Source of the DNA: a virus
Direction: 5' to 3' (one strand)
DNA: 64,000 bases
Virus record (IMG/VR): IMGVR_UViG_2710264501_000005
Coordinates: 5,929-69,928 of that record
How positions within the stretch are numbered: the first letter of the stretch is position 1; each line of letters opens with the position of its first letter. Position numbers and translations under genes: made by a program. The notes below the pieces were generated by a model. The model was not told where the DNA came from. It ran no database searches and worked only from the letters and a program-made list of their open reading frames with translations. Below are positions 22,849 through 31,319 of the stretch, piece after piece.

Positions 22849-25152
22849 GTGAATGAGGATCAGTACAGAGAGTTTCTGAGCAACAAGTATCGTCTTATGC
22901 AGCCAGTAGGCTTTGAGACAGACGAAACAAAGTTCCCGTCGAAATTGTTTCCTTGGCAAGCCGATCTTGTCCGGTGGACTTGCCGGATAGGACGAAGCGG
23001 GCTGTTTGCTGATACTGGACTGGGAAAGACGCCCATGCAACTAGCGTGGGCAGAGCAGGTCGTAAGACACGAGAACAAGCCCGTCATTATACTGTGTCCT
23101 CTCGCAGTTGCACAACAGACCGTGCAGCAGGCGGATAAGTTTGATATTGGAGTCAAAGTGTCCGTATGTCGGGAAATGGCCGACATTGAAAAGCACAAGC
23201 CGGATGTTGTGGTCACAAACTATGACAGGCTTCACCTGTTCGATGTGGATGATTTTGTCGGCGTGGTTTTAGACGAAGGAAGCATTCTGAAAAACTATGC
23301 CGGGAAAACGCGGACACTGCTGATAGACAGGTTCAGGAAAACGAAGTATCGACTCATAGCTACGGCGACACCAGCCCCGAACGATCATAACGAGCTAGGC
23401 AACCATGCGGAGTTTTTGGGCGTTTTGACACGCTTGGAAATGCTCGCAAACTGGTTTAAGCATGATTCAGGAGAAACGCAAAAGTGGCGGCTACGAGGTC
23501 ACGCTGAAAGAGACTTCTGGAGATGGCTCGCCTCGTGGGCAGCGTGTATAACGGCTCCGTCTGATTTAGGCTATCCTGACGATGGCTTTGCACTTCCCGA
23601 ATTAAAGAGACACGTTCACGAAGTATCGGCTGACAACTGCCCGCCACCGGAGGGCCAGTTCTGGCACACGGATAGCGTGTCAGCCACCAAGATGCACGGT
23701 GTCAAGCGTCTTACGGCGGACGCACGGGCCGCGAAGGTAGCCGACCTGATAAACGGCGATGATGAGCAGTGGTTGATATGGGTGGATACCGACTACGAGG
23801 CAGATGCAGTCAAGCGAGCAGTTGAAGATGCCGTTGAAGTAAGGGGCTCGCACAAGACGGAAAAGAAAGAAGAGGCGTTGTTTGGATTCGCCAACGGACA
23901 AATCAAAAGGCTGATTACCAAGCCTGAGATTGCAGGGTATGGGTTAAACCTGCAAAACTGCAACAGGATGGCTTTTGCTGGCATGTCGTTCAGTTTCGAG
24001 AGAACGTATCAGGCTATCAGGAGGTGTTGGAGGTACGGTCAGACCAGACCCGTAGACGCCCACTTTATCACGAGCGATGCGGAGTCTACGGCCCTTAGTG
24101 CCGTCGAGTCAAAGGAGTGTGCGTTCAAAGAGACCCGAAAAAAACTGATCGAGTCAGTTCGTGAACATCAGAAGGCGAACATATACCGAAAGCCGCGTAA
24201 GCAGGAGACAAAGCCAGTGGAGACACACGAAGGAAACGGTTGGACCTTGCACCACGGCGACGTTGTGGACGGAATAAAACTAATTCAGGATGAATCGGTA
24301 GGGTTCTCTATTTACAGCCCGCCGTTCGCAACGCTGTTTACATATTCGGATAGTCACGAAGACATGGGCAACTGCCACAATTACGAGGAGTTCTTCGATC
24401 ATTTTGCGTTTCTCGTTCCTGAGTTGTATCGGGTAATGATGCCAGGACGGACAATGGCTGTCCATTGCATGGACCTGCCGACCACAAAGCAACACGACGG
24501 TTTTATCGGAGCAAGGGACTTCCCTGGCGATCTTATTCGTAGTTTTCAGTCAGCAGGGTTCATTTACCATGCTCGTATTTGTATCTGGAAAGACCCGCTG
24601 CTAGCAGCAGTGCGGACGCACACTATCGGGCTTGCTCACCAGCAATTAGTCAAGGATTCCGCCATCTGTCGGACAGGATGGCCTGACTACATAGTTGTCA
24701 TGAGGAAGCCGGGAGAAAATCCGAAGCCGATATCGCATCCGGACGGACTTACACACTACACCGGCGAGATCGATCCTGGTGCTGAAGCTCAAGGCGAGAA
24801 GCGGTCACATCATCGTTGGAGAGGATACGCTTCTCCTGTGTGGATGGACATTAGGCAAACGAGGACTCTGAACGGAGAGTTGGGAAAACGAGAGGCACGC
24901 GACGAAAAAGACGAAGCCCACGTTTGCCCTCTTCAACTGGACGTAATCGAGCGTTGCCTAGAGTTGTGGTCTGCTGAGGATGATCTGGTATTCAGCCCGT
25001 TTACGGGTATCGGGTCAGAGGGTTATTGTTCGGTTCGTATGGGACGGCGGTTTGTGGGGTGCGAGTTAAAAGACTCATACGTTAATGTCGCTGTCAAAAA
25101 TCTTCGGCAGGCCGAAGCCGAGGCGAAAGAGATCAACAGGACTCTTTTTTAA
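22849..25152 (+). CDS. SNF2-like helicase fused to an N4/N6 DNA methyltransferase
   Basis: ADTGLGKT, LDEGS, ATATP, QAIRRCWRYGQ; C-terminal YSPPF and FSPFTGIGSEG. Confidence 0.9.
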   Translation: MNEDQYREFLSNKYRLMQPVGFETDETKFPSKLFPWQADLVRWTCRIGRSGLFADTGLGKTPMQLAWAEQVVRHENKPVIILCPLAVAQQTVQQADKFDIGVKVSVCREMADIEKHKPDVVVTNYDRLHLFDVDDFVGVVLDEGSILKNYAGKTRTLLIDRFRKTKYRLIATATPAPNDHNELGNHAEFLGVLTRLEMLANWFKHDSGETQKWRLRGHAERDFWRWLASWAACITAPSDLGYPDDGFALPELKRHVHEVSADNCPPPEGQFWHTDSVSATKMHGVKRLTADARAAKVADLINGDDEQWLIWVDTDYEADAVKRAVEDAVEVRGSHKTEKKEEALFGFANGQIKRLITKPEIAGYGLNLQNCNRMAFAGMSFSFERTYQAIRRCWRYGQTRPVDAHFITSDAESTALSAVESKECAFKETRKKLIESVREHQKANIYRKPRKQETKPVETHEGNGWTLHHGDVVDGIKLIQDESVGFSIYSPPFATLFTYSDSHEDMGNCHNYEEFFDHFAFLVPELYRVMMPGRTMAVHCMDLPTTKQHDGFIGARDFPGDLIRSFQSAGFIYHARICIWKDPLLAAVRTHTIGLAHQQLVKDSAICRTGWPDYIVVMRKPGENPKPISHPDGLTHYTGEIDPGAEAQGEKRSHHRWRGYASPVWMDIRQTRTLNGELGKREARDEKDEAHVCPLQLDVIERCLELWSAEDDLVFSPFTGIGSEGYCSVRMGRRFVGCELKDSYVNVAVKNLRQAEAEAKEINRTLF

Positions 25153-25904: not shown

Positions 25905-26468
25905 ATGAAGAAGCTCTTTTGGCTAGCTCTGGCGATCTTTCTGGTTGTGCTTGTCGGCTTGGGGACGCTTTCTAGTCTGCCCGATCCTCAGCCCGATCCG
26001 CCTGCCCCAGAACCGGAGCCGCCGAAGCCGCCTGGACCTGTTCCACCAGTTCCACCAAACCCGCAGCCGGAACCCGACCCAGAGATCATAGGCGGGAAGG
26101 TTTGGGGCGTTGTCTCTTCTGTGATGTTTCGCATATCGCAAGGGCTGTGGGGCAAGGAAACGGTCTTGTTACGCGGGTGCGAGGCTCCTGATCCCCAAGG
26201 GCCACATTTCAAGCCTGCTAAGCAGTTCCTTGCACGATGGATTGAGAACCGCCGCGTCGATATCAAGGTCTATGACCGGGTGGATGGTTTTGTAATCGGT
26301 GACGGGATGGTAGGCGGTTTTGATATCGCGTCTGAAGTCTTACGCGAAGGATGGGCACGATTGCAGGAAGGTCGGGGAACTCCTCAGCAGAGAGCCGCAC
26401 AGGAAGAGGCTAGGTCTGCTAGACGAGGTATCTGGAGCGATCCGAGCAATTGGGGAGAGGAAGCATGA
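25905..26468 (+). CDS. membrane-anchored thermonuclease (SNase-like) with Pro-rich linker
   Basis: N-terminal TM, (P/D/E)-rich linker, LRGCEAPD, EVLREGWA and AQEEARSARRGIWS. Confidence 0.8.
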   Translation: MKKLFWLALAIFLVVLVGLGTLSSLPDPQPDPPAPEPEPPKPPGPVPPVPPNPQPEPDPEIIGGKVWGVVSSVMFRISQGLWGKETVLLRGCEAPDPQGPHFKPAKQFLARWIENRRVDIKVYDRVDGFVIGDGMVGGFDIASEVLREGWARLQEGRGTPQQRAAQEEARSARRGIWSDPSNWGEEA

Positions 26469-27118
26469 TCGACCCGACCCCGATTGTTCAACTTCTGGAA
26501 ACTGCAAGCCCCGGCTGGTGGCTGACTGTGATTGGTTCGTCCGTGCTCCTAATCTGGGCGATGAATCTAGACTCATGGAAGGGGACGGTTGCGGTTGTCG
26601 TGATAGCCTCTGCCGGATTGATCTTTTTCGGCAACACCAAGGCATACTTTGCCGTCCTATTCAATCTTCCATTGATGGGCTTTGCTACCGGGGTCTATCT
26701 TGTTGTCGGTGCAATCTGGTCAGTGATTCGCTGGATTGTCTTCGTCTATGACTCTCTCTCAGCCTATGCGGAAGAAAAGTTAGAGTGGCTTAACCGCAAG
26801 GGACTAACCGGAGTAGACGAGATCCCCGAAGGGCTCAAAGCGGAATGGACGGAATATTTACGGGCAGGCAGCCAATGGGTGCGGAAGGTTTGGGACACGG
26901 ACAAAGGCACTTATCGCCTTGACATATCGGTGATTCCGAAGCTTTGGGACCATGCGAGCCGGGCGACGTTATGGGGCTCGTTTTGGCCTTGGAGTTTGTT
27001 GCAGACTGCGGGGCGGTTTCTGTTGCGTTTACTGTGGCGGTACGTGATACGCAAAATATACGAATGGATTGATTCGATGGTAGGGAGGCTGTTTCGAGAG
27101 CCAAACGATCTAGCTTAG
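26465..27118 (+). CDS. multi-TM membrane protein, paralog of 30109-30699
   Basis: Hydrophobic N-half; shared G..W...W and W...WPWS motifs. Confidence 0.7.
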   Translation: MIDPTPIVQLLETASPGWWLTVIGSSVLLIWAMNLDSWKGTVAVVVIASAGLIFFGNTKAYFAVLFNLPLMGFATGVYLVVGAIWSVIRWIVFVYDSLSAYAEEKLEWLNRKGLTGVDEIPEGLKAEWTEYLRAGSQWVRKVWDTDKGTYRLDISVIPKLWDHASRATLWGSFWPWSLLQTAGRFLLRLLWRYVIRKIYEWIDSMVGRLFREPNDLA

Positions 27119-27129
27119 GGGGTTCTGAA

Positions 27130-27930
27130 ATGAAACGGGGGAAGATTCTTTTTGCGGCCGTTCTAATGGCCGCTGTTGTGTGCCAGGGTGCGGAGCGGAT
27201 AACCAGCCCGCCTCCAGGTGATTTCCAGATTGATACTGGTACGTTTTCCAAGCCGGGGCCTAGCGGTCCTGTTGCGAGGATCAGCGGACCAACGACGGTC
27301 AACGCGGGCGATCTTGCCGTCATGCGGTCTGATGGATCGGCCGGAAAACTGAAGTGGTTACTGGTTCCGAAAAACGCTCTTGATCGAACGATGGAGGGAT
27401 CTAACGGCGAGCTAGCCTTTGCCAGTGCAACGCCAGGGACTTATACGTTTATCCTGATATCCGTAGACGGGGACAAGTTAGCATGGGCGATGCACGAATT
27501 GCAGAACGGGGGCGGCCCCGGACCCGGACCCACTCCCCCTGGTCCGGACCCTCCGGGGCCAACCCCGCCTCCTGATCCTCCAAACCCTGATGATCCGTTC
27601 GCCGATCTTATCAGGGTATCGCGTGAGGGAGCCGCTAAGGTAGACACGATCAACAAAGCGGAAGAGGCAGGAAAGCTTGCCCGTGCTACAAAAGCACAAG
27701 CGGCGGCAATTATGGCCGGTGCTTACAGTTCCGCCAAGGAAATCCGCGAGGCGTGGCGGGATGCCAACCATCAGGCGATAGGGTTTGAGTCTACGGGAAA
27801 GTGGTTGCCCTGGGCTGAAGCTGTTGGAAACGCCATTCAAGGTTTGGATTCGAGTGGCAAATTGAAAGAGTACAAGAGCTACGCACAAGCCTTTGAGGCT
27901 GTAGCGAAGGGATTGGAGGGTGTGCAGTGA
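27130..27930 (+). CDS. exported protein with Pro/Gly-rich linker
   Basis: Signal peptide; GPGPGPTPPGPDPPGPTPPPDPP linker. Confidence 0.7.
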   Translation: MKRGKILFAAVLMAAVVCQGAERITSPPPGDFQIDTGTFSKPGPSGPVARISGPTTVNAGDLAVMRSDGSAGKLKWLLVPKNALDRTMEGSNGELAFASATPGTYTFILISVDGDKLAWAMHELQNGGGPGPGPTPPGPDPPGPTPPPDPPNPDDPFADLIRVSREGAAKVDTINKAEEAGKLARATKAQAAAIMAGAYSSAKEIREAWRDANHQAIGFESTGKWLPWAEAVGNAIQGLDSSGKLKEYKSYAQAFEAVAKGLEGVQ

Positions 27931-28124
27931 GCGAAAAAGCCGAGGCGATTGCCATAATTGAAGAGTGCCGAGAGATCCACAAACAATGGGCAGACTGGCA
28001 GGATTCCAAAGGCGACTGGAAAGCAGAGACAAAGCCCGATGATGTAGGCGGGCCGGAATATCATCGGGAATGGGTTGCGAAGTACGAAAAGGTCTTGCGA
28101 GTATTGAAGGGGAAGTCGGAATGA
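27927..28124 (+). CDS. small hypothetical protein
   Basis: Coupled to both neighbours; has a frameshifted paralog at 4762-4938. Confidence 0.65.
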   Translation: MSEKAEAIAIIEECREIHKQWADWQDSKGDWKAETKPDDVGGPEYHREWVAKYEKVLRVLKGKSE

Positions 28125-30094
28125 GTCAGCAACCGCCATGGGAATTGATGGGCTGGTCGAAAGACCACGAAAAGGAAGCCTTTGAGCAGATCGTCCGAGC
28201 GAACCTTGTAATTCCGTTTGTGATTCAAGGACAGGGCAACGATAAGCCGGGCGTGCCGATCTGGGAGTTTGCCAAGCGGGTAAACGGCGGGCAGCACTTG
28301 CCGACGTTGAAGCAAGAGATAGGCGACTGCGTGAGCTTCGGGTGTGCTCAAGCAGGCATGTACATGAGTGCTTTTGAAATCGCATGGGCAGGCCAAGAGG
28401 AAGAGTTCAAAAGATGGTATCCGCCGTATATCTACGGCATGAGCCGCGTAGCTCCTGACCTTGGCAACGGTCGGCTTGGCAACAGCGACGGATCGACGGG
28501 AGCATGGGGAGCGGGAGCGTTGCAGAAGTACGGGGTACTGTTTGCGGACGATCAGGGCGTTCCTGCTTATTCCGGTTCGGTGGCGAAACAATGGGGCCGA
28601 TCAGGACCGCCCCGCGAGTTTCAGGAGATGGCCAAGGATAACCCGGTGAAGTCTGTTGCCAAGCTATCGAGCGTCGAAGAGATCAGAGACGCATTGATTA
28701 ACTACCATCCTTGCACAATTGCGAGTATGCGAGGGTTTGAGATGCAGCCCAAGGAATACAAAGGGCGGCATGTATTTATTCCGAGTGGTTCGTGGCCCCA
28801 CCAAATGTGTATGATCCAATGGCAAGACGATCCGTTTCCTGCGGCGTATCGCCTGAACTGCTACGACAACGAAACGGATGTGTTGACCGATCAGGGGTGG
28901 TTCCGATTCTCCGAGTTACCAGAGGATGTTCGTATAGCCACCTTGAATCCCGAGACGTTAGCTGTTGAGTATCATTCGCCAATCAGCCGAGTTGCATCGC
29001 AGTACGAAGGAGAGATGATCCATTTCAAGGCCAAAGGCGTCGATCTTCTGGTAACACCGAACCACAATATGTGGATAGCAGGAAAGTGGCCGGACCACGC
29101 GAAGTTCTCCAGATGGAAGTTTGCTACAGCCGAGACGGTTCCATCAGTGTTTGCAATAAGGAAAAATGCTGCACCTGTTGTTCAAAACGACGTACAGTCT
29201 ATCGTAGTAGCCGGTCATGAGATTTCGATGGATGATTGGCTTGAGTTCCTTGGCTGGTTTTTATCAGAGGGTTGGGCGTCTTGCCGAACAAGGATGAGGG
29301 CTAGAGCAGGAAGCAAAAAGACCGGAGGACCTTACGAGGTCGAAGAGACTGACTACTACATTGGGATTGCCAACAGCAACGAAGAACACTGCGACCGGAT
29401 ACGATCCATGCTTGGCAGATTGCCGTTTAACTTCAATGAGAAAAAGTACGGCAGATGCACACAGTTTGTTTGCTACAGTCGGGACTTAGGCAAAGAATTG
29501 GTTCCCTTTGGAAAGGCACCCCAGAAGCGAGTCCCTAATTACGTATGGGAAACTTCCGCACAGCAGCAAATGTTGCTTCTCAAGACTCTTGTAGCGGGTG
29601 ACGGTCAATGCGATGAGAGCGGATATATGAGATACAGTACCGTGTCTGTTCAACTAGCCGATGACGTTCAGAGGCTCGCGTTGAATGTTGGATTGTGTGC
29701 GGACATTACGAACATGCACACCAAGGGGAAAAAGTTTGGCAAAGCCAAGTCAAACTACGACCTATTAAAAGTATCTATCCGAGGAACGCGGTTATTGTCA
29801 ACACGAGGCGGCAAACCGTGGCATCCAGAGCGGGTTCCATACAAGGATATGGTGTATTGTGTGAATGTACCGCCGCATCATATTATCTATGTTCGGCGGA
29901 ATGGAAAAGCTTGTTGGTGTGGCCAGTCTTGGGGCGAATCGGCACATGGAAGCCCGCTAAACGGCGAGCCCGCTGGAGGTGCCTGGAATCGAGCGGAGGA
30001 TTTAGAGCGTGAGCTACGGTCGGGCGATGTGGAGGTCTACGCCCTCAGTGCTTTTGAGGGATTTCCTGGTCGGGCGAATTTCTCGCCGATTTAA
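28121..30094 (+). CDS. papain-like (C1-type) cysteine peptidase precursor containing an intein
   Basis: QEIGDCVSFG (Gln/Cys), HQMCM (His), and N|SWG split by the insert. Confidence 0.8.
   Translation: MSQQPPWELMGWSKDHEKEAFEQIVRANLVIPFVIQGQGNDKPGVPIWEFAKRVNGGQHLPTLKQEIGDCVSFGCAQAGMYMSAFEIAWAGQEEEFKRWYPPYIYGMSRVAPDLGNGRLGNSDGSTGAWGAGALQKYGVLFADDQGVPAYSGSVAKQWGRSGPPREFQEMAKDNPVKSVAKLSSVEEIRDALINYHPCTIASMRGFEMQPKEYKGRHVFIPSGSWPHQMCMIQWQDDPFPAAYRLNCYDNETDVLTDQGWFRFSELPEDVRIATLNPETLAVEYHSPISRVASQYEGEMIHFKAKGVDLLVTPNHNMWIAGKWPDHAKFSRWKFATAETVPSVFAIRKNAAPVVQNDVQSIVVAGHEISMDDWLEFLGWFLSEGWASCRTRMRARAGSKKTGGPYEVEETDYYIGIANSNEEHCDRIRSMLGRLPFNFNEKKYGRCTQFVCYSRDLGKELVPFGKAPQKRVPNYVWETSAQQQMLLLKTLVAGDGQCDESGYMRYSTVSVQLADDVQRLALNVGLCADITNMHTKGKKFGKAKSNYDLLKVSIRGTRLLSTRGGKPWHPERVPYKDMVYCVNVPPHHIIYVRRNGKACWCGQSWGESAHGSPLNGEPAGGAWNRAEDLERELRSGDVEVYALSAFEGFPGRANFSPI
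28859..29926 (+). mobile_element. 356-aa intein with LAGLIDADG-type homing endonuclease, ending in Gln
   Basis: Block A CYDNETDVLT, block B VTPNHNM, endonuclease motifs FLGWFLSEG and LLKTLVAGDG, block F VYCVNVP, end WCGQ|S. Confidence 0.85.
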
Positions 30095-30108: not shown

Positions 30109-30699
30109 ATGTTTGCCGAGTGGATTGTATTGGGTTCGCTGTTGTTCTGGATTCTTTTGGGCCTAATCAGTTTGTTGCTGATTATGTTTGTCGAAGAAGA
30201 AGCCGGAGGTCCTGGGGCGTTTGTGCTTGGATTGTTTTTGGTCGCATGGCTTTTGGTTGGCGATCTACCGGAACTGATAACCACTAAGCCTTGGCATATC
30301 GCTGGGTTAGCGGTCGGGTACATCGCAATTGGGGTCGCATGGTGTTGGCCTAAGTGGCTGTTTCTTCTCAATCGTTTGCGTATTGAGTACAAGAACGAAC
30401 TAGCTAGGTTTCTAAAACGGAACAATGCCGAAGAGGTTACAGAAGAGTTGCGGGAATCATGGTCTAGTATCGTTGAGTCTTCTTGGAAATGGAACTATGG
30501 TATGTCTTTCTCGGCAGAGACAGGCAAGCTAACCCCGCCATCGTTTGAGAAGAACCGAAGCCGCTTGATTGTATGGGCTGCCTACTGGCCTTGGAGTATG
30601 TTCTGGACGCTGCTACGCGACCCGATCAAGTGGATTGTAGACTTGTGTGGCGAGTTGTTTCAAAAGACCAGCGAATGGATGTTTCGCGGGTTTGAATGA
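30109..30699 (+). CDS. multi-TM membrane protein, paralog of 26465-27118
   Basis: Three N-terminal hydrophobic helices; WAAYWPWSM. Confidence 0.7.
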   Translation: MFAEWIVLGSLLFWILLGLISLLLIMFVEEEAGGPGAFVLGLFLVAWLLVGDLPELITTKPWHIAGLAVGYIAIGVAWCWPKWLFLLNRLRIEYKNELARFLKRNNAEEVTEELRESWSSIVESSWKWNYGMSFSAETGKLTPPSFEKNRSRLIVWAAYWPWSMFWTLLRDPIKWIVDLCGELFQKTSEWMFRGFE

Positions 30700-30707
30700 G
30701 GTGGATT

Positions 30708-31319
30708 ATGTTCAACGCAACGTGGCGGATAACGGTCTTGGCAATCGTGGTTGCCGCTGTGGTTTTGTTGCACGTTGCGGGGGTGTTTGGTTCCGATTGG
30801 GCACCTCTGCGAGAAAGCGATTGGACGCCTCTTCCAACGGTCCAAACCACTAAGCAGCAATATGCGGCAGCCCTGGAAGAGTACCAACGCGGGCGGCCTA
30901 TGCTGATTTACTATACGGCCAAGTGGTGTGCTCCATGCCGAAAGGTCAAGCCGTTGCTGCCACGGCTCCGCAAGATGGGCGTATTGGTAGAGATCGACAT
31001 AGACGAAGAGAAGTGGGCCAGAAAAGGGATGGTTCAGGCGGGCATCCCCCAAGTCGTGATCTTCTACAAGTCGGGATCGGAGAACGTGCGTTTGTCTTGG
31101 GTCGGAGTGCCCGAGATAACCGACCGCTTGCAGCGTTTCGAGGCGGAGGGGATCTACTATGACGGATCAGCCAAGATTCAGACGAGTCAATCGCGGGTGT
31201 TGTGGTCTGTCCGTGAGACGTACATTGTGCCGGGTCCGGTGAGCTATCGCCCGGCATGGGAGTTTGGAGCACGTCCGGTTTCAGGTTTTCCGATGGCCGA
31301 TTGTGGGCCTAGTGGATGA
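30708..31319 (+). CDS. exported thioredoxin-fold protein
   Basis: Hydrophobic N-terminus; YYTAKWCAPCRK and GIPQ cis-Pro motif. Confidence 0.8.
   Translation: MFNATWRITVLAIVVAAVVLLHVAGVFGSDWAPLRESDWTPLPTVQTTKQQYAAALEEYQRGRPMLIYYTAKWCAPCRKVKPLLPRLRKMGVLVEIDIDEEKWARKGMVQAGIPQVVIFYKSGSENVRLSWVGVPEITDRLQRFEAEGIYYDGSAKIQTSQSRVLWSVRETYIVPGPVSYRPAWEFGARPVSGFPMADCGPSG

What the first reader, a model, noticed from the sequence alone, without database searches (positions are those of the whole stretch)
28121..30094. Gln-terminated intein inserted immediately after the catalytic Asn of a papain-like peptidase
Seen: the NSWG motif is split as N|CYDNETD...WCGQ|SWG. The 356-aa insert has Hint blocks and LAGLIDADG motifs but ends Gly-Gln instead of His-Asn. 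Known: most inteins sit in nucleic-acid enzymes, and Gln-ending inteins are a rare variant. Inference: the protease can only be active after splicing, so the intein may act as a conditional timer on a lysis- or virion-associated peptidase; it lies upstream of a holin-like gene.
Basis: partly seen in the sequence, partly recalled or inferred. Interest (0 to 1): 0.65.

Follow-up and report, generated by a model that had tools for sequence, protein, structure and literature searches.

The report
Gln-ended intein in phage papain-like peptidase
A phage cysteine-protease gene is interrupted, exactly after its catalytic asparagine, by a mobile self-splicing protein element (intein) that ends in glutamine instead of asparagine; every relative found at this insertion point shares the glutamine, but nothing shows that the intein acts as a lysis timer.

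Summary
Gene 28121-30094 (+) of a ~78-kb uncultured phage encodes a 301-aa xylellain-type papain-fold peptidase. It is split between Asn246 and Ser of its NSWG motif by a 356-aa class-1 LAGLIDADG intein (28859-29926) that starts with Cys and ends Gly-Gln, followed by Ser.

An allele with 89% identical exteins has the site empty (…YRLN|SWG…).

The penultimate Gly is not special: it is invariant in this large intein family, which normally ends GN. Only the Gln is lineage-specific.
- All 14 inteins found at this site end GQ.
- All 55 inteins found three or four residues downstream (NSWG|S) end GN.
- The site-c inteins lie on one side of a tree branch.

The peptidase family is an intein hot spot with four insertion points. 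These include sites directly before the catalytic Cys and two residues after the catalytic His.

The evidence fits a selfish, splicing-competent element:
- Both exteins are under strong purifying selection.
- The endonuclease motifs are intact.
- The intein has lower GC than its host gene.

The "timer" idea is untested. The lysis or virion link and the "holin-like" neighbour are not supported: relatives sit in nucleotide-metabolism modules. I found no paper on inteins in papain-like peptidases.

The parts
28121..28858 (+). N-extein (aa 1-246) of a xylellain-type papain-fold cysteine peptidase. It carries Gln65, catalytic Cys70 (28328-28330), His227 (28799-28801) and Asn246 (28856-28858), the last residue before the intein.
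   Evidence: phmmer finds 1,051 representative homologues. The family profile aligns His and NSWG with cathepsin H. Fold of intein-free homologue P0005. Near-invariant Q, C, H and N in alignment A1.
28859..29926 (+). Class-1 intein of 356 aa, from Cys1 (28859-28861) to Gly355-Gln356 (CAG, 29924-29926). Block A is at 28859-28900, block B (TPNH) at 29045-29074, block F at 29852-29893 and block G at 29894-29926.
   Evidence: Boundaries from the empty-site allele. Family alignment A2. AF2 and Foldseek match to HEN-inteins. PHROG matches to intein segments of ThyX, RNR and TerL families.
29228..29758 (+). Nested LAGLIDADG homing-endonuclease domain (approximate limits). Motif 1 is LEFLGWFLSEGW (29240-29275, acidic Glu137). 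Motif 2 is LLKTLVAGDGQ (29576-29608, acidic Asp248).
   Evidence: Pfam LAGLIDADG_3 at 5e-07. E137 and D248 are near-invariant in 66 relatives. I-DmoI-like domain matches.
29927..30094 (+). C-extein (aa 603-657 plus stop), starting with the +1 nucleophile Ser603 (29927-29929) of SWG.
   Evidence: The L002 allele is contiguous and closely matches this segment. dN/dS is 0.07.
30109..30699 (+). Listed only to mark that it is not shown to belong to the feature.
   Evidence: No Pfam or PHROG hit. Two N-terminal hydrophobic segments. Paralogue of ORF 26450-27118 at E 7e-10.
30696..31319 (+). Thioredoxin-fold protein with an N-terminal membrane anchor and a WCAPC motif. A thioredoxin gene recurs next to the peptidase gene in some relatives.
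   Evidence: Pfam Thioredoxin at 3.7e-09. A thioredoxin lies directly downstream in L002 and L003, and WCxxC ORFs lie downstream in 8 of 82 loci.

Best explanation
A mobile class-1 intein with a nested LAGLIDADG homing endonuclease has invaded the NSWG active-site motif of a phage xylellain-type C1 cysteine peptidase. It sits between the catalytic Asn (the -1 residue) and Ser (the +1 nucleophile).

Inferred mechanism: the 657-aa precursor cannot form the papain fold's Cys-His-Asn site. Cys1 makes the thioester. Ser+1 attacks it to give the branched ester. The terminal Gln356 cyclises to a glutarimide in place of the usual Asn succinimide, which releases the intein. An O-to-N shift then restores the Asn-Ser bond, giving an active 301-aa peptidase and a free endonuclease that can home into empty alleles.

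The Gly-Gln end is inherited. Gly is the norm for the whole intein family. Gln is fixed in the clade that occupies this exact site. Reverting CAG to AAY needs two base changes through Lys or His (codon table), which may explain why Gln persists. The element is best seen as selfish rather than regulatory.

Shown here: the boundaries, the folds, conservation of the catalytic residues, the empty allele, and the link between site and terminal residue. Inferred: splicing, endonuclease activity, and inactivity of the precursor.
For: - Exact boundaries and an empty site in an allele with 89% identical exteins.
- Intein fold and homologues.
- All family-invariant splicing and endonuclease residues are present.
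- Papain fold and aligned triad of the host.
- 14 of 14 site-c inteins end GQ|SWG, and 55 of 55 site-d inteins end GN|S.
- Site-c inteins lie on one side of a branch, with SH-aLRT 99 in the 116-row tree and 92 in the 186-row tree.
- Spliced exteins of seven site-c hosts aligned keep Cys, His and NSWG.
- Exteins are under strong purifying selection: dN/dS 0.10 for the N-extein and 0.07 for the C-extein, against the L002 allele.
- Intein GC is 0.49 against 0.55-0.59 for the exteins.
- Hosts of site-c inteins share only 28-38% extein identity with the window's host, while close relatives lack the intein.
- Gln-ended inteins are known to splice: Pab and Mma PolII, and CIV RNR (review PMC4031507).
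Against: - No experimental splicing data exist for any member of this clade.
- Some Gln-ended inteins splice slowly, and the penultimate His that assists step 3 is absent (though it is absent family-wide).
- dS between the two alleles is near saturation (1.1-2.0), and the comparison spans time both before and after the invasion. The selection signal therefore does not strictly date to the intein-bearing state.
- The link between site and Gln rests on one inferred origin, so it is a single evolutionary event and not 14 independent ones.
Confidence: 0.8

Rival explanations
1. The Gln-ended intein is a regulatory device. Slow or condition-dependent (redox or temperature) splicing delays activation of the peptidase until a set time in infection.
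For: The insert separates the catalytic Asn from Ser, so activity should wait for splicing (inference). Gln slows step 3 in the Pab PolII intein about 20-fold (PMC4031507). The intein has Cys1, Cys334, Cys352 and Cys354. A thioredoxin gene lies nearby. Gln is retained across a deep clade.
Against: The closest allele and most family members work without any intein at this site. The same intein family invades dozens of unrelated enzymes. The thioredoxin accompanies intein-free alleles too and sits beside RNR genes, its usual client. The CIV RNR intein splices better with Gln than with Asn, so Gln does not imply slowness. No evidence places the peptidase in a lysis or virion module.
Confidence: 0.1
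2. The intein is decaying and no longer splices, or only cleaves. The peptidase gene in this phage is then functionally dead, and Gln is simply a disabling mutation.
For: The terminal Asn and the penultimate His, both helpers of step 3, are absent. No Pfam Intein_splicing hit was found for the window protein.
Against: Gln is shared by 14 diverged inteins (35-39% identical to the window's). In the seven hosts aligned the ORFs are intact and the extein triads are kept. Every family-invariant residue is kept. C-extein dN/dS is 0.07. The endonuclease motifs are intact. The penultimate Gly is shared with inteins in essential enzymes such as NrdD, MCM and ThyX, which must splice.
Confidence: 0.08

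Closest known systems
Gln-terminated inteins: Pyrococcus abyssi and Methanoculleus marisnigri PolII inteins, and the Chilo iridescent virus RNR intein (review PMC4031507)
   Same: A class-1 intein whose last residue is Gln instead of Asn. Step 3 is presumed to go through Gln cyclisation.
   Different: They sit in unrelated host proteins (a DNA polymerase and an RNR) and belong to other intein lineages. Here the Gln is fixed in a whole clade tied to one insertion point, while sister inteins three or four residues downstream all keep Asn. The penultimate residue here is Gly and the +1 residue is Ser.
LAGLIDADG homing-endonuclease inteins with solved structures: TliVMA and PhoVMA (7qsu, 7qss, 7qst), PI-PfuI (1dq3), PI-SceI (1vde)
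   Same: A HINT splicing domain with a nested two-motif LAGLIDADG endonuclease. Foldseek E values run from 1.5e-16 to 1e-11, with TM about 0.6.
   Different: Sequence identity is only 10-16%. The host is a peptidase rather than an ATPase or RNR. There is no penultimate His, and the terminal residue is Gln.
The 'CYDxxTEVLT...YVRRNGKxxWCGN' intein family found here in NAD-dependent epimerases/dehydratases, ThyX, NrdD, MCM, PurD and papain-like peptidases
   Same: The window's intein is a member. It shares 34-40% identity, the same length and blocks, an invariant penultimate Gly and Cys at block F:4.
   Different: It ends in Gln and sits at N|SWG rather than NSWG|S or a site in another enzyme.
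Xylellain-type short C1A peptidases (xylellain, PDB 3ois), reported as horizontally acquired by Caudoviricetes (PMC10380794)
   Same: Best structural match of the host protein: a Q...C...H...NSWG active site, about 300 aa, with an N-terminal region ahead of the catalytic Cys.
   Different: The window protein does not reach Pfam PF00112. That paper's text contains no occurrence of 'intein'. Substrate and role in the phage are unknown.
Inteins in other proteases: Chlamydomonas eugametos chloroplast ClpP and archaeal LonB (cited in PMC4031507 and PMC4760082)
   Same: An intein interrupting a protease. From my own recollection, the ClpP intein also lacks the penultimate His.
   Different: Those hosts are serine proteases of other folds. 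The literature I read does not place the insertion at a catalytic-triad residue.

Membership tests
Intein (class 1) | In-frame insert in a conserved host motif, with intein-free alleles that read straight through | tested here: met
   The L002 allele (89% identical exteins) reads ...AAYRLN|SWG... Dozens of ~300-aa homologues have a contiguous N[ST]WG.
Intein (class 1) | N-terminal nucleophile (Cys/Ser) and block B Thr-x-x-His | tested here: met
   Cys1, Thr66 and His69 are invariant in the 66-sequence alignment.
Intein (class 1) | C-terminal Asn followed by Cys/Ser/Thr at +1 | tested here: not met
   The terminal residue is Gln356 (CAG) followed by Ser+1. This is the recognised Gln variant (PMC4031507), so it does not exclude membership.
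Intein (class 1) | Penultimate His (block G:6) | tested here: not met
   Gly355. This position is invariant Gly in the whole intein family. Inteins without this His are known to splice (references in PMC4031507).
Intein (class 1) | HINT fold | tested here: met
   AF2 pLDDT 94.7. Foldseek hits to TliVMA, PI-PfuI and PI-SceI inteins at E 1.5e-16 to 1e-11.
Intein (class 1) | Protein splicing activity | not testable with these tools
   Needs expression and a mass or Western blot assay.
LAGLIDADG homing endonuclease | Two LAGLIDADG motifs, each ending in an acidic catalytic residue, within the endonuclease fold | tested here: met
   Motifs at intein residues 128-139 (Glu137) and 240-250 (Asp248). 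Pfam PF14528 at 5e-07. I-DmoI-like structural matches.
LAGLIDADG homing endonuclease | Site-specific cleavage of the empty allele | not testable with these tools
   Requires an in-vitro cleavage assay on the NSWG-coding DNA.
Papain family (C1A, xylellain type) | Gln...Cys...His...Asn active-site residues in order, with Asn in the NSWG motif | tested here: met
   Q65, C70, H227 and N246|S603-W-G. The residues are near-invariant in A1, and His and NSWG align with cathepsin H.
Papain family (C1A, xylellain type) | Papain two-domain fold | tested here: met
   Model of intein-free homologue P0005 (pLDDT 93.4) against xylellain 3ois at E 1.2e-11, and against procathepsins B, H and L. This was tested on a homologue with 52% identical exteins, not on the spliced window protein itself.
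Papain family (C1A, xylellain type) | Pfam PF00112 above the gathering score | tested here: not met
   No hit for the window protein or its N-extein. Only 6 of 50 homologues give weak hits. It is a distant branch of the fold.
   The ORF is 196 aa, has no holin or endolysin hit nearby, and is a paralogue of an upstream ORF.

The most novel reading that the evidence does not exclude
The terminal Gln is not an accident. It may be a requirement of sitting directly after an Asn codon.

With a normal Asn end, the 3' junction (…AAY|TCN TGG GG…) would rebuild the −1 Asn codon together with the right half of the homing site, and would create a direct repeat around the element. That could expose the intein to its own endonuclease or to precise deletion. 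At the protein level, the −1 Asn may require a retuned step 3.

If so, this clade is a natural example of insertion-site context dictating intein chemistry. Splicing of a mesophilic Gln-ended intein would then gate a phage protease whose three catalytic residues are all intein targets.
Probability: 0.12. Interest if true: 0.65.

Novelty: new member of a known kind. Interest (0 to 1): 0.45.

Why it matters
Inteins are said to sit in conserved motifs but rarely at catalytic residues (PMC4760082). This phage peptidase family breaks that pattern three times: the catalytic Cys is the +1 residue, the catalytic Asn is the −1 residue, and a third site lies two residues after the catalytic His.

It also offers a clean natural contrast between related inteins. 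Those placed three or four residues apart in the same motif end either always in Gln or always in Asn. That is a ready-made system for asking what Gln cyclisation costs or buys. It could also supply new inteins for protein engineering.

It adds papain-fold proteases to the list of intein hosts. For annotating this phage, it shows that a 657-aa 'hypothetical protein' is a 301-aa protease plus a homing endonuclease.

Tried and rejected
- Pfam and PHROG scans of the N-extein alone gave nothing. phmmer of the N-extein and of the intein against PDB sequences gave only noise. A family profile and structure prediction were needed.
- tblastn of the N-extein against 50,697 GenBank phage records found no match, so there is no annotated cultured relative.
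- The search for related loci with the 50-sequence alignment failed because it had no conserved stretch. With the single protein it found nothing. An 8-sequence alignment gave 80 IMG/VR loci. None had the site-c intein, seven had site a and two had site b.
- I tested the idea that thioredoxin is an obligate partner of the peptidase. Only 8 of 82 loci had a WCxxC ORF downstream, and in L003 it lies beside RNR genes. I kept it as a note only.
- I considered a class-3 intein reading (the WCT triplet) and rejected it: Cys1 is present and block B position 12 is not Trp.
- One paper look-up timed out and succeeded on retry.
- Literature searches for inteins in papain-like or cysteine peptidases found no relevant paper.

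Full report
**What is in the sequence.** The window is part of a 77.9-kb IMG/VR virus record judged 97% complete. ORF 28121-30094 on the + strand encodes 657 aa. Its ATG overlaps the stop of the preceding small ORF (ATGA), and homologue P0002 starts with the same MSQQPPW. Residues 1-246 end ...AAYRLN. Residues 247-602 begin CYDNETDVLT and end ...ACWCGQ. Residues 603-657 begin SWGESAHG.

**The host protein is a papain-fold peptidase.** The N-extein alone gives no Pfam, PHROG or PDB sequence hit. An exhaustive phmmer search finds 1,051 representative homologues, many about 300 aa long with a contiguous N[ST]WG.
- A 50-member alignment has invariant or near-invariant Q, C, H, N and W at the expected spacing.
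- Its profile hits C1 peptidases in the PDB. Cathepsin H scores 1.6e-4, with the His and the NSWG motif aligned to the papain-family His159 and Asn175-Ser-Trp (residue numbers from general knowledge of papain).
- An AF2 model of intein-free homologue P0005 (pLDDT 93.4) matches xylellain (3ois, E 1.2e-11) and procathepsins B, H and L.
- Xylellain-type C1A peptidases in tailed phages are already on record (PMC10380794).
- In the window protein the residues are Gln65, Cys70, His227 and Asn246. The intein follows the catalytic Asn directly.

**The insert is an intein with a homing endonuclease.**
- Pfam finds LAGLIDADG_3. PHROGs match its two ends to the intein parts of ThyX, RNR and terminase families.
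- A database search returns more than 1,000 relatives at 27-40% identity, embedded in NAD-dependent epimerases/dehydratases, ThyX, NrdD, MCM, PurD, PAPS reductases, glycosyltransferases and many papain-like peptidases.
- In a 66-sequence alignment, Cys1, Thr66, His69 (block B) and Gly355 are invariant. Glu137 and Asp248 (the two LAGLIDADG acidic residues) and Cys334 (block F) are near-invariant. The window's intein has them all.
- Its AF2 model (pLDDT 94.7) matches TliVMA, PhoVMA, PI-PfuI and PI-SceI inteins, and its middle domain matches I-DmoI.
- It is the only intein in this phage genome.
- Its GC is 0.49, against 0.55 and 0.59 for the two exteins.

**The empty site.** P0002, whose exteins are 89% identical, lies on a 2.6-kb contig (L002). 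It reads ...GCTTACCGCTTGAAT|TCCTGGGGC..., that is AAYRLN|SWG, without interruption. This fixes the splice junctions. P0002 carries a different mini-intein directly before the catalytic Cys.

**Selection on the exteins.** Nei-Gojobori dN/dS between the two alleles is 0.10 for the N-extein and 0.07 for the C-extein. The part downstream of the intein is therefore kept as coding sequence. The caveat is that dS is near saturation and the comparison covers both lineages.

**The Gly-Gln end.** The penultimate Gly is the family norm. The usual end is ...WCGN followed by Ser, Cys or Thr. The Gln is specific to one group.
- Across two searches I found 14 inteins at exactly N|SWG, and all end GQ.
- I found 55 at NSWG|S or one residue further on, and all end in Asn.
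- Among about 117 inteins in other hosts, five end in Gln.
- On trees built without the terminal residue, the site-c inteins lie on one side of a branch. SH-aLRT is 99 with 116 rows and 92 with 186 rows. The window's intein branches first, and the main site-d group is the neighbour.
- This looks like one origin that has been kept over deep divergence: 35-39% identity between the window's intein and the others.
- The spliced hosts of the seven site-c inteins from the first search (including the window's own) keep the triad. The other six share only 28-38% identity with the window's host. The element is therefore either old or has moved between distant alleles.
- Going from CAG back to AAY needs two base changes through Lys or His (codon table). 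This alone could lock the state in.
- Gln-ended inteins are known to splice. The Pab and Mma PolII inteins do so slowly, and the CIV RNR intein does so better than with Asn (PMC4031507). Gln is therefore compatible with function and does not by itself imply slowness.

**An intein hot spot.** The same peptidase family carries inteins at three further points.
- Site a is GD|C. The catalytic Cys is the +1 nucleophile (P0002, P0003, P0026 and others).
- Site b is HQM|C, two residues after the catalytic His. These inteins all end HN|C (P0004, P0046, P0087 and others).
- Site d is NSWG|S.
- Several proteins hold two inteins.
- Among 80 IMG/VR loci, seven had site a, two had site b and none had site c.
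That fits site a.

- Upstream lie an SNF2-helicase/N6-N4 methylase fusion, an SNase-like protein and membrane or exported proteins. Downstream lie a 196-aa membrane protein, an anchored thioredoxin and a small C-terminally anchored protein.
- The 196-aa ORF has no holin or other family hit and is a paralogue of ORF 26450-27118.
- In other phages the peptidase sits among SSB, glycosyltransferases, thioredoxin, RNR, PhoH and RecA (L003), or among ThyX and RNR (L023).
- A thioredoxin is directly downstream in some loci with and without inteins (8 of 82), but it also adjoins RNR genes.
- Nothing points to a lysis or virion role.

**Verdict.** The best reading is a selfish, probably splicing-competent LAGLIDADG intein of a known variant type (Gln end), in a host and at a position that I could not find described. 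Inactivity of the precursor is a fair inference. A timer function is speculation. The fresh points are the strict link between insertion point and terminal residue, and the targeting of all three catalytic positions of one protease family.

Noticed in passing
window 26450-27118 and 30109-30699: Two paralogous membrane proteins (222 and 196 aa, BLASTP E 7e-10, shared WPWS region) bracket the peptidase gene. Neither has a Pfam or PHROG family.
   Followed up: partly
P0097 and P0112 (homologues; junctions): Some inteins at the catalytic-Cys site of this peptidase family begin with Pro (GD|PFRAGT...) instead of Cys or Ser. One of them ends ...QYQ|C. They may be inteins without an N-terminal nucleophile.
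   Followed up: no
window 30696-31319; L002 1712-2323; L003 9962-10534: A thioredoxin-fold gene (WCxxC) lies just downstream of the peptidase gene in several diverged phages, with or without inteins. In L003 it is followed by RNR subunits.
   Followed up: partly
window 22849-25152: A single 767-aa ORF fuses an SNF2/DEAD helicase with an N6/N4 DNA methyltransferase domain.
   Followed up: no
window 25905-26468 and 27130-27930: An SNase-like nuclease with an N-terminal hydrophobic segment and a 266-aa protein with a signal-like N-terminus and a Pro-rich linker. Together with their neighbours they form a cluster of exported or membrane proteins around the cytoplasmic-looking peptidase.
   Followed up: no
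L070 (IMGVR_UViG_GVMAG-M-3300017991-11_000001): A homologue of the peptidase carrying a site-a intein lies on a contig labelled as a giant-virus MAG, so the family may not be confined to tailed phages.
   Followed up: no
P0183, P0200, P0223, P0304: Isolated Gln-ended members of the same intein family occur in other hosts (one carrying Pfam PF04865, an NAD-dependent epimerase, and others), each nested among Asn-ended relatives. The Asn-to-Gln change has therefore happened several times.
   Followed up: partly
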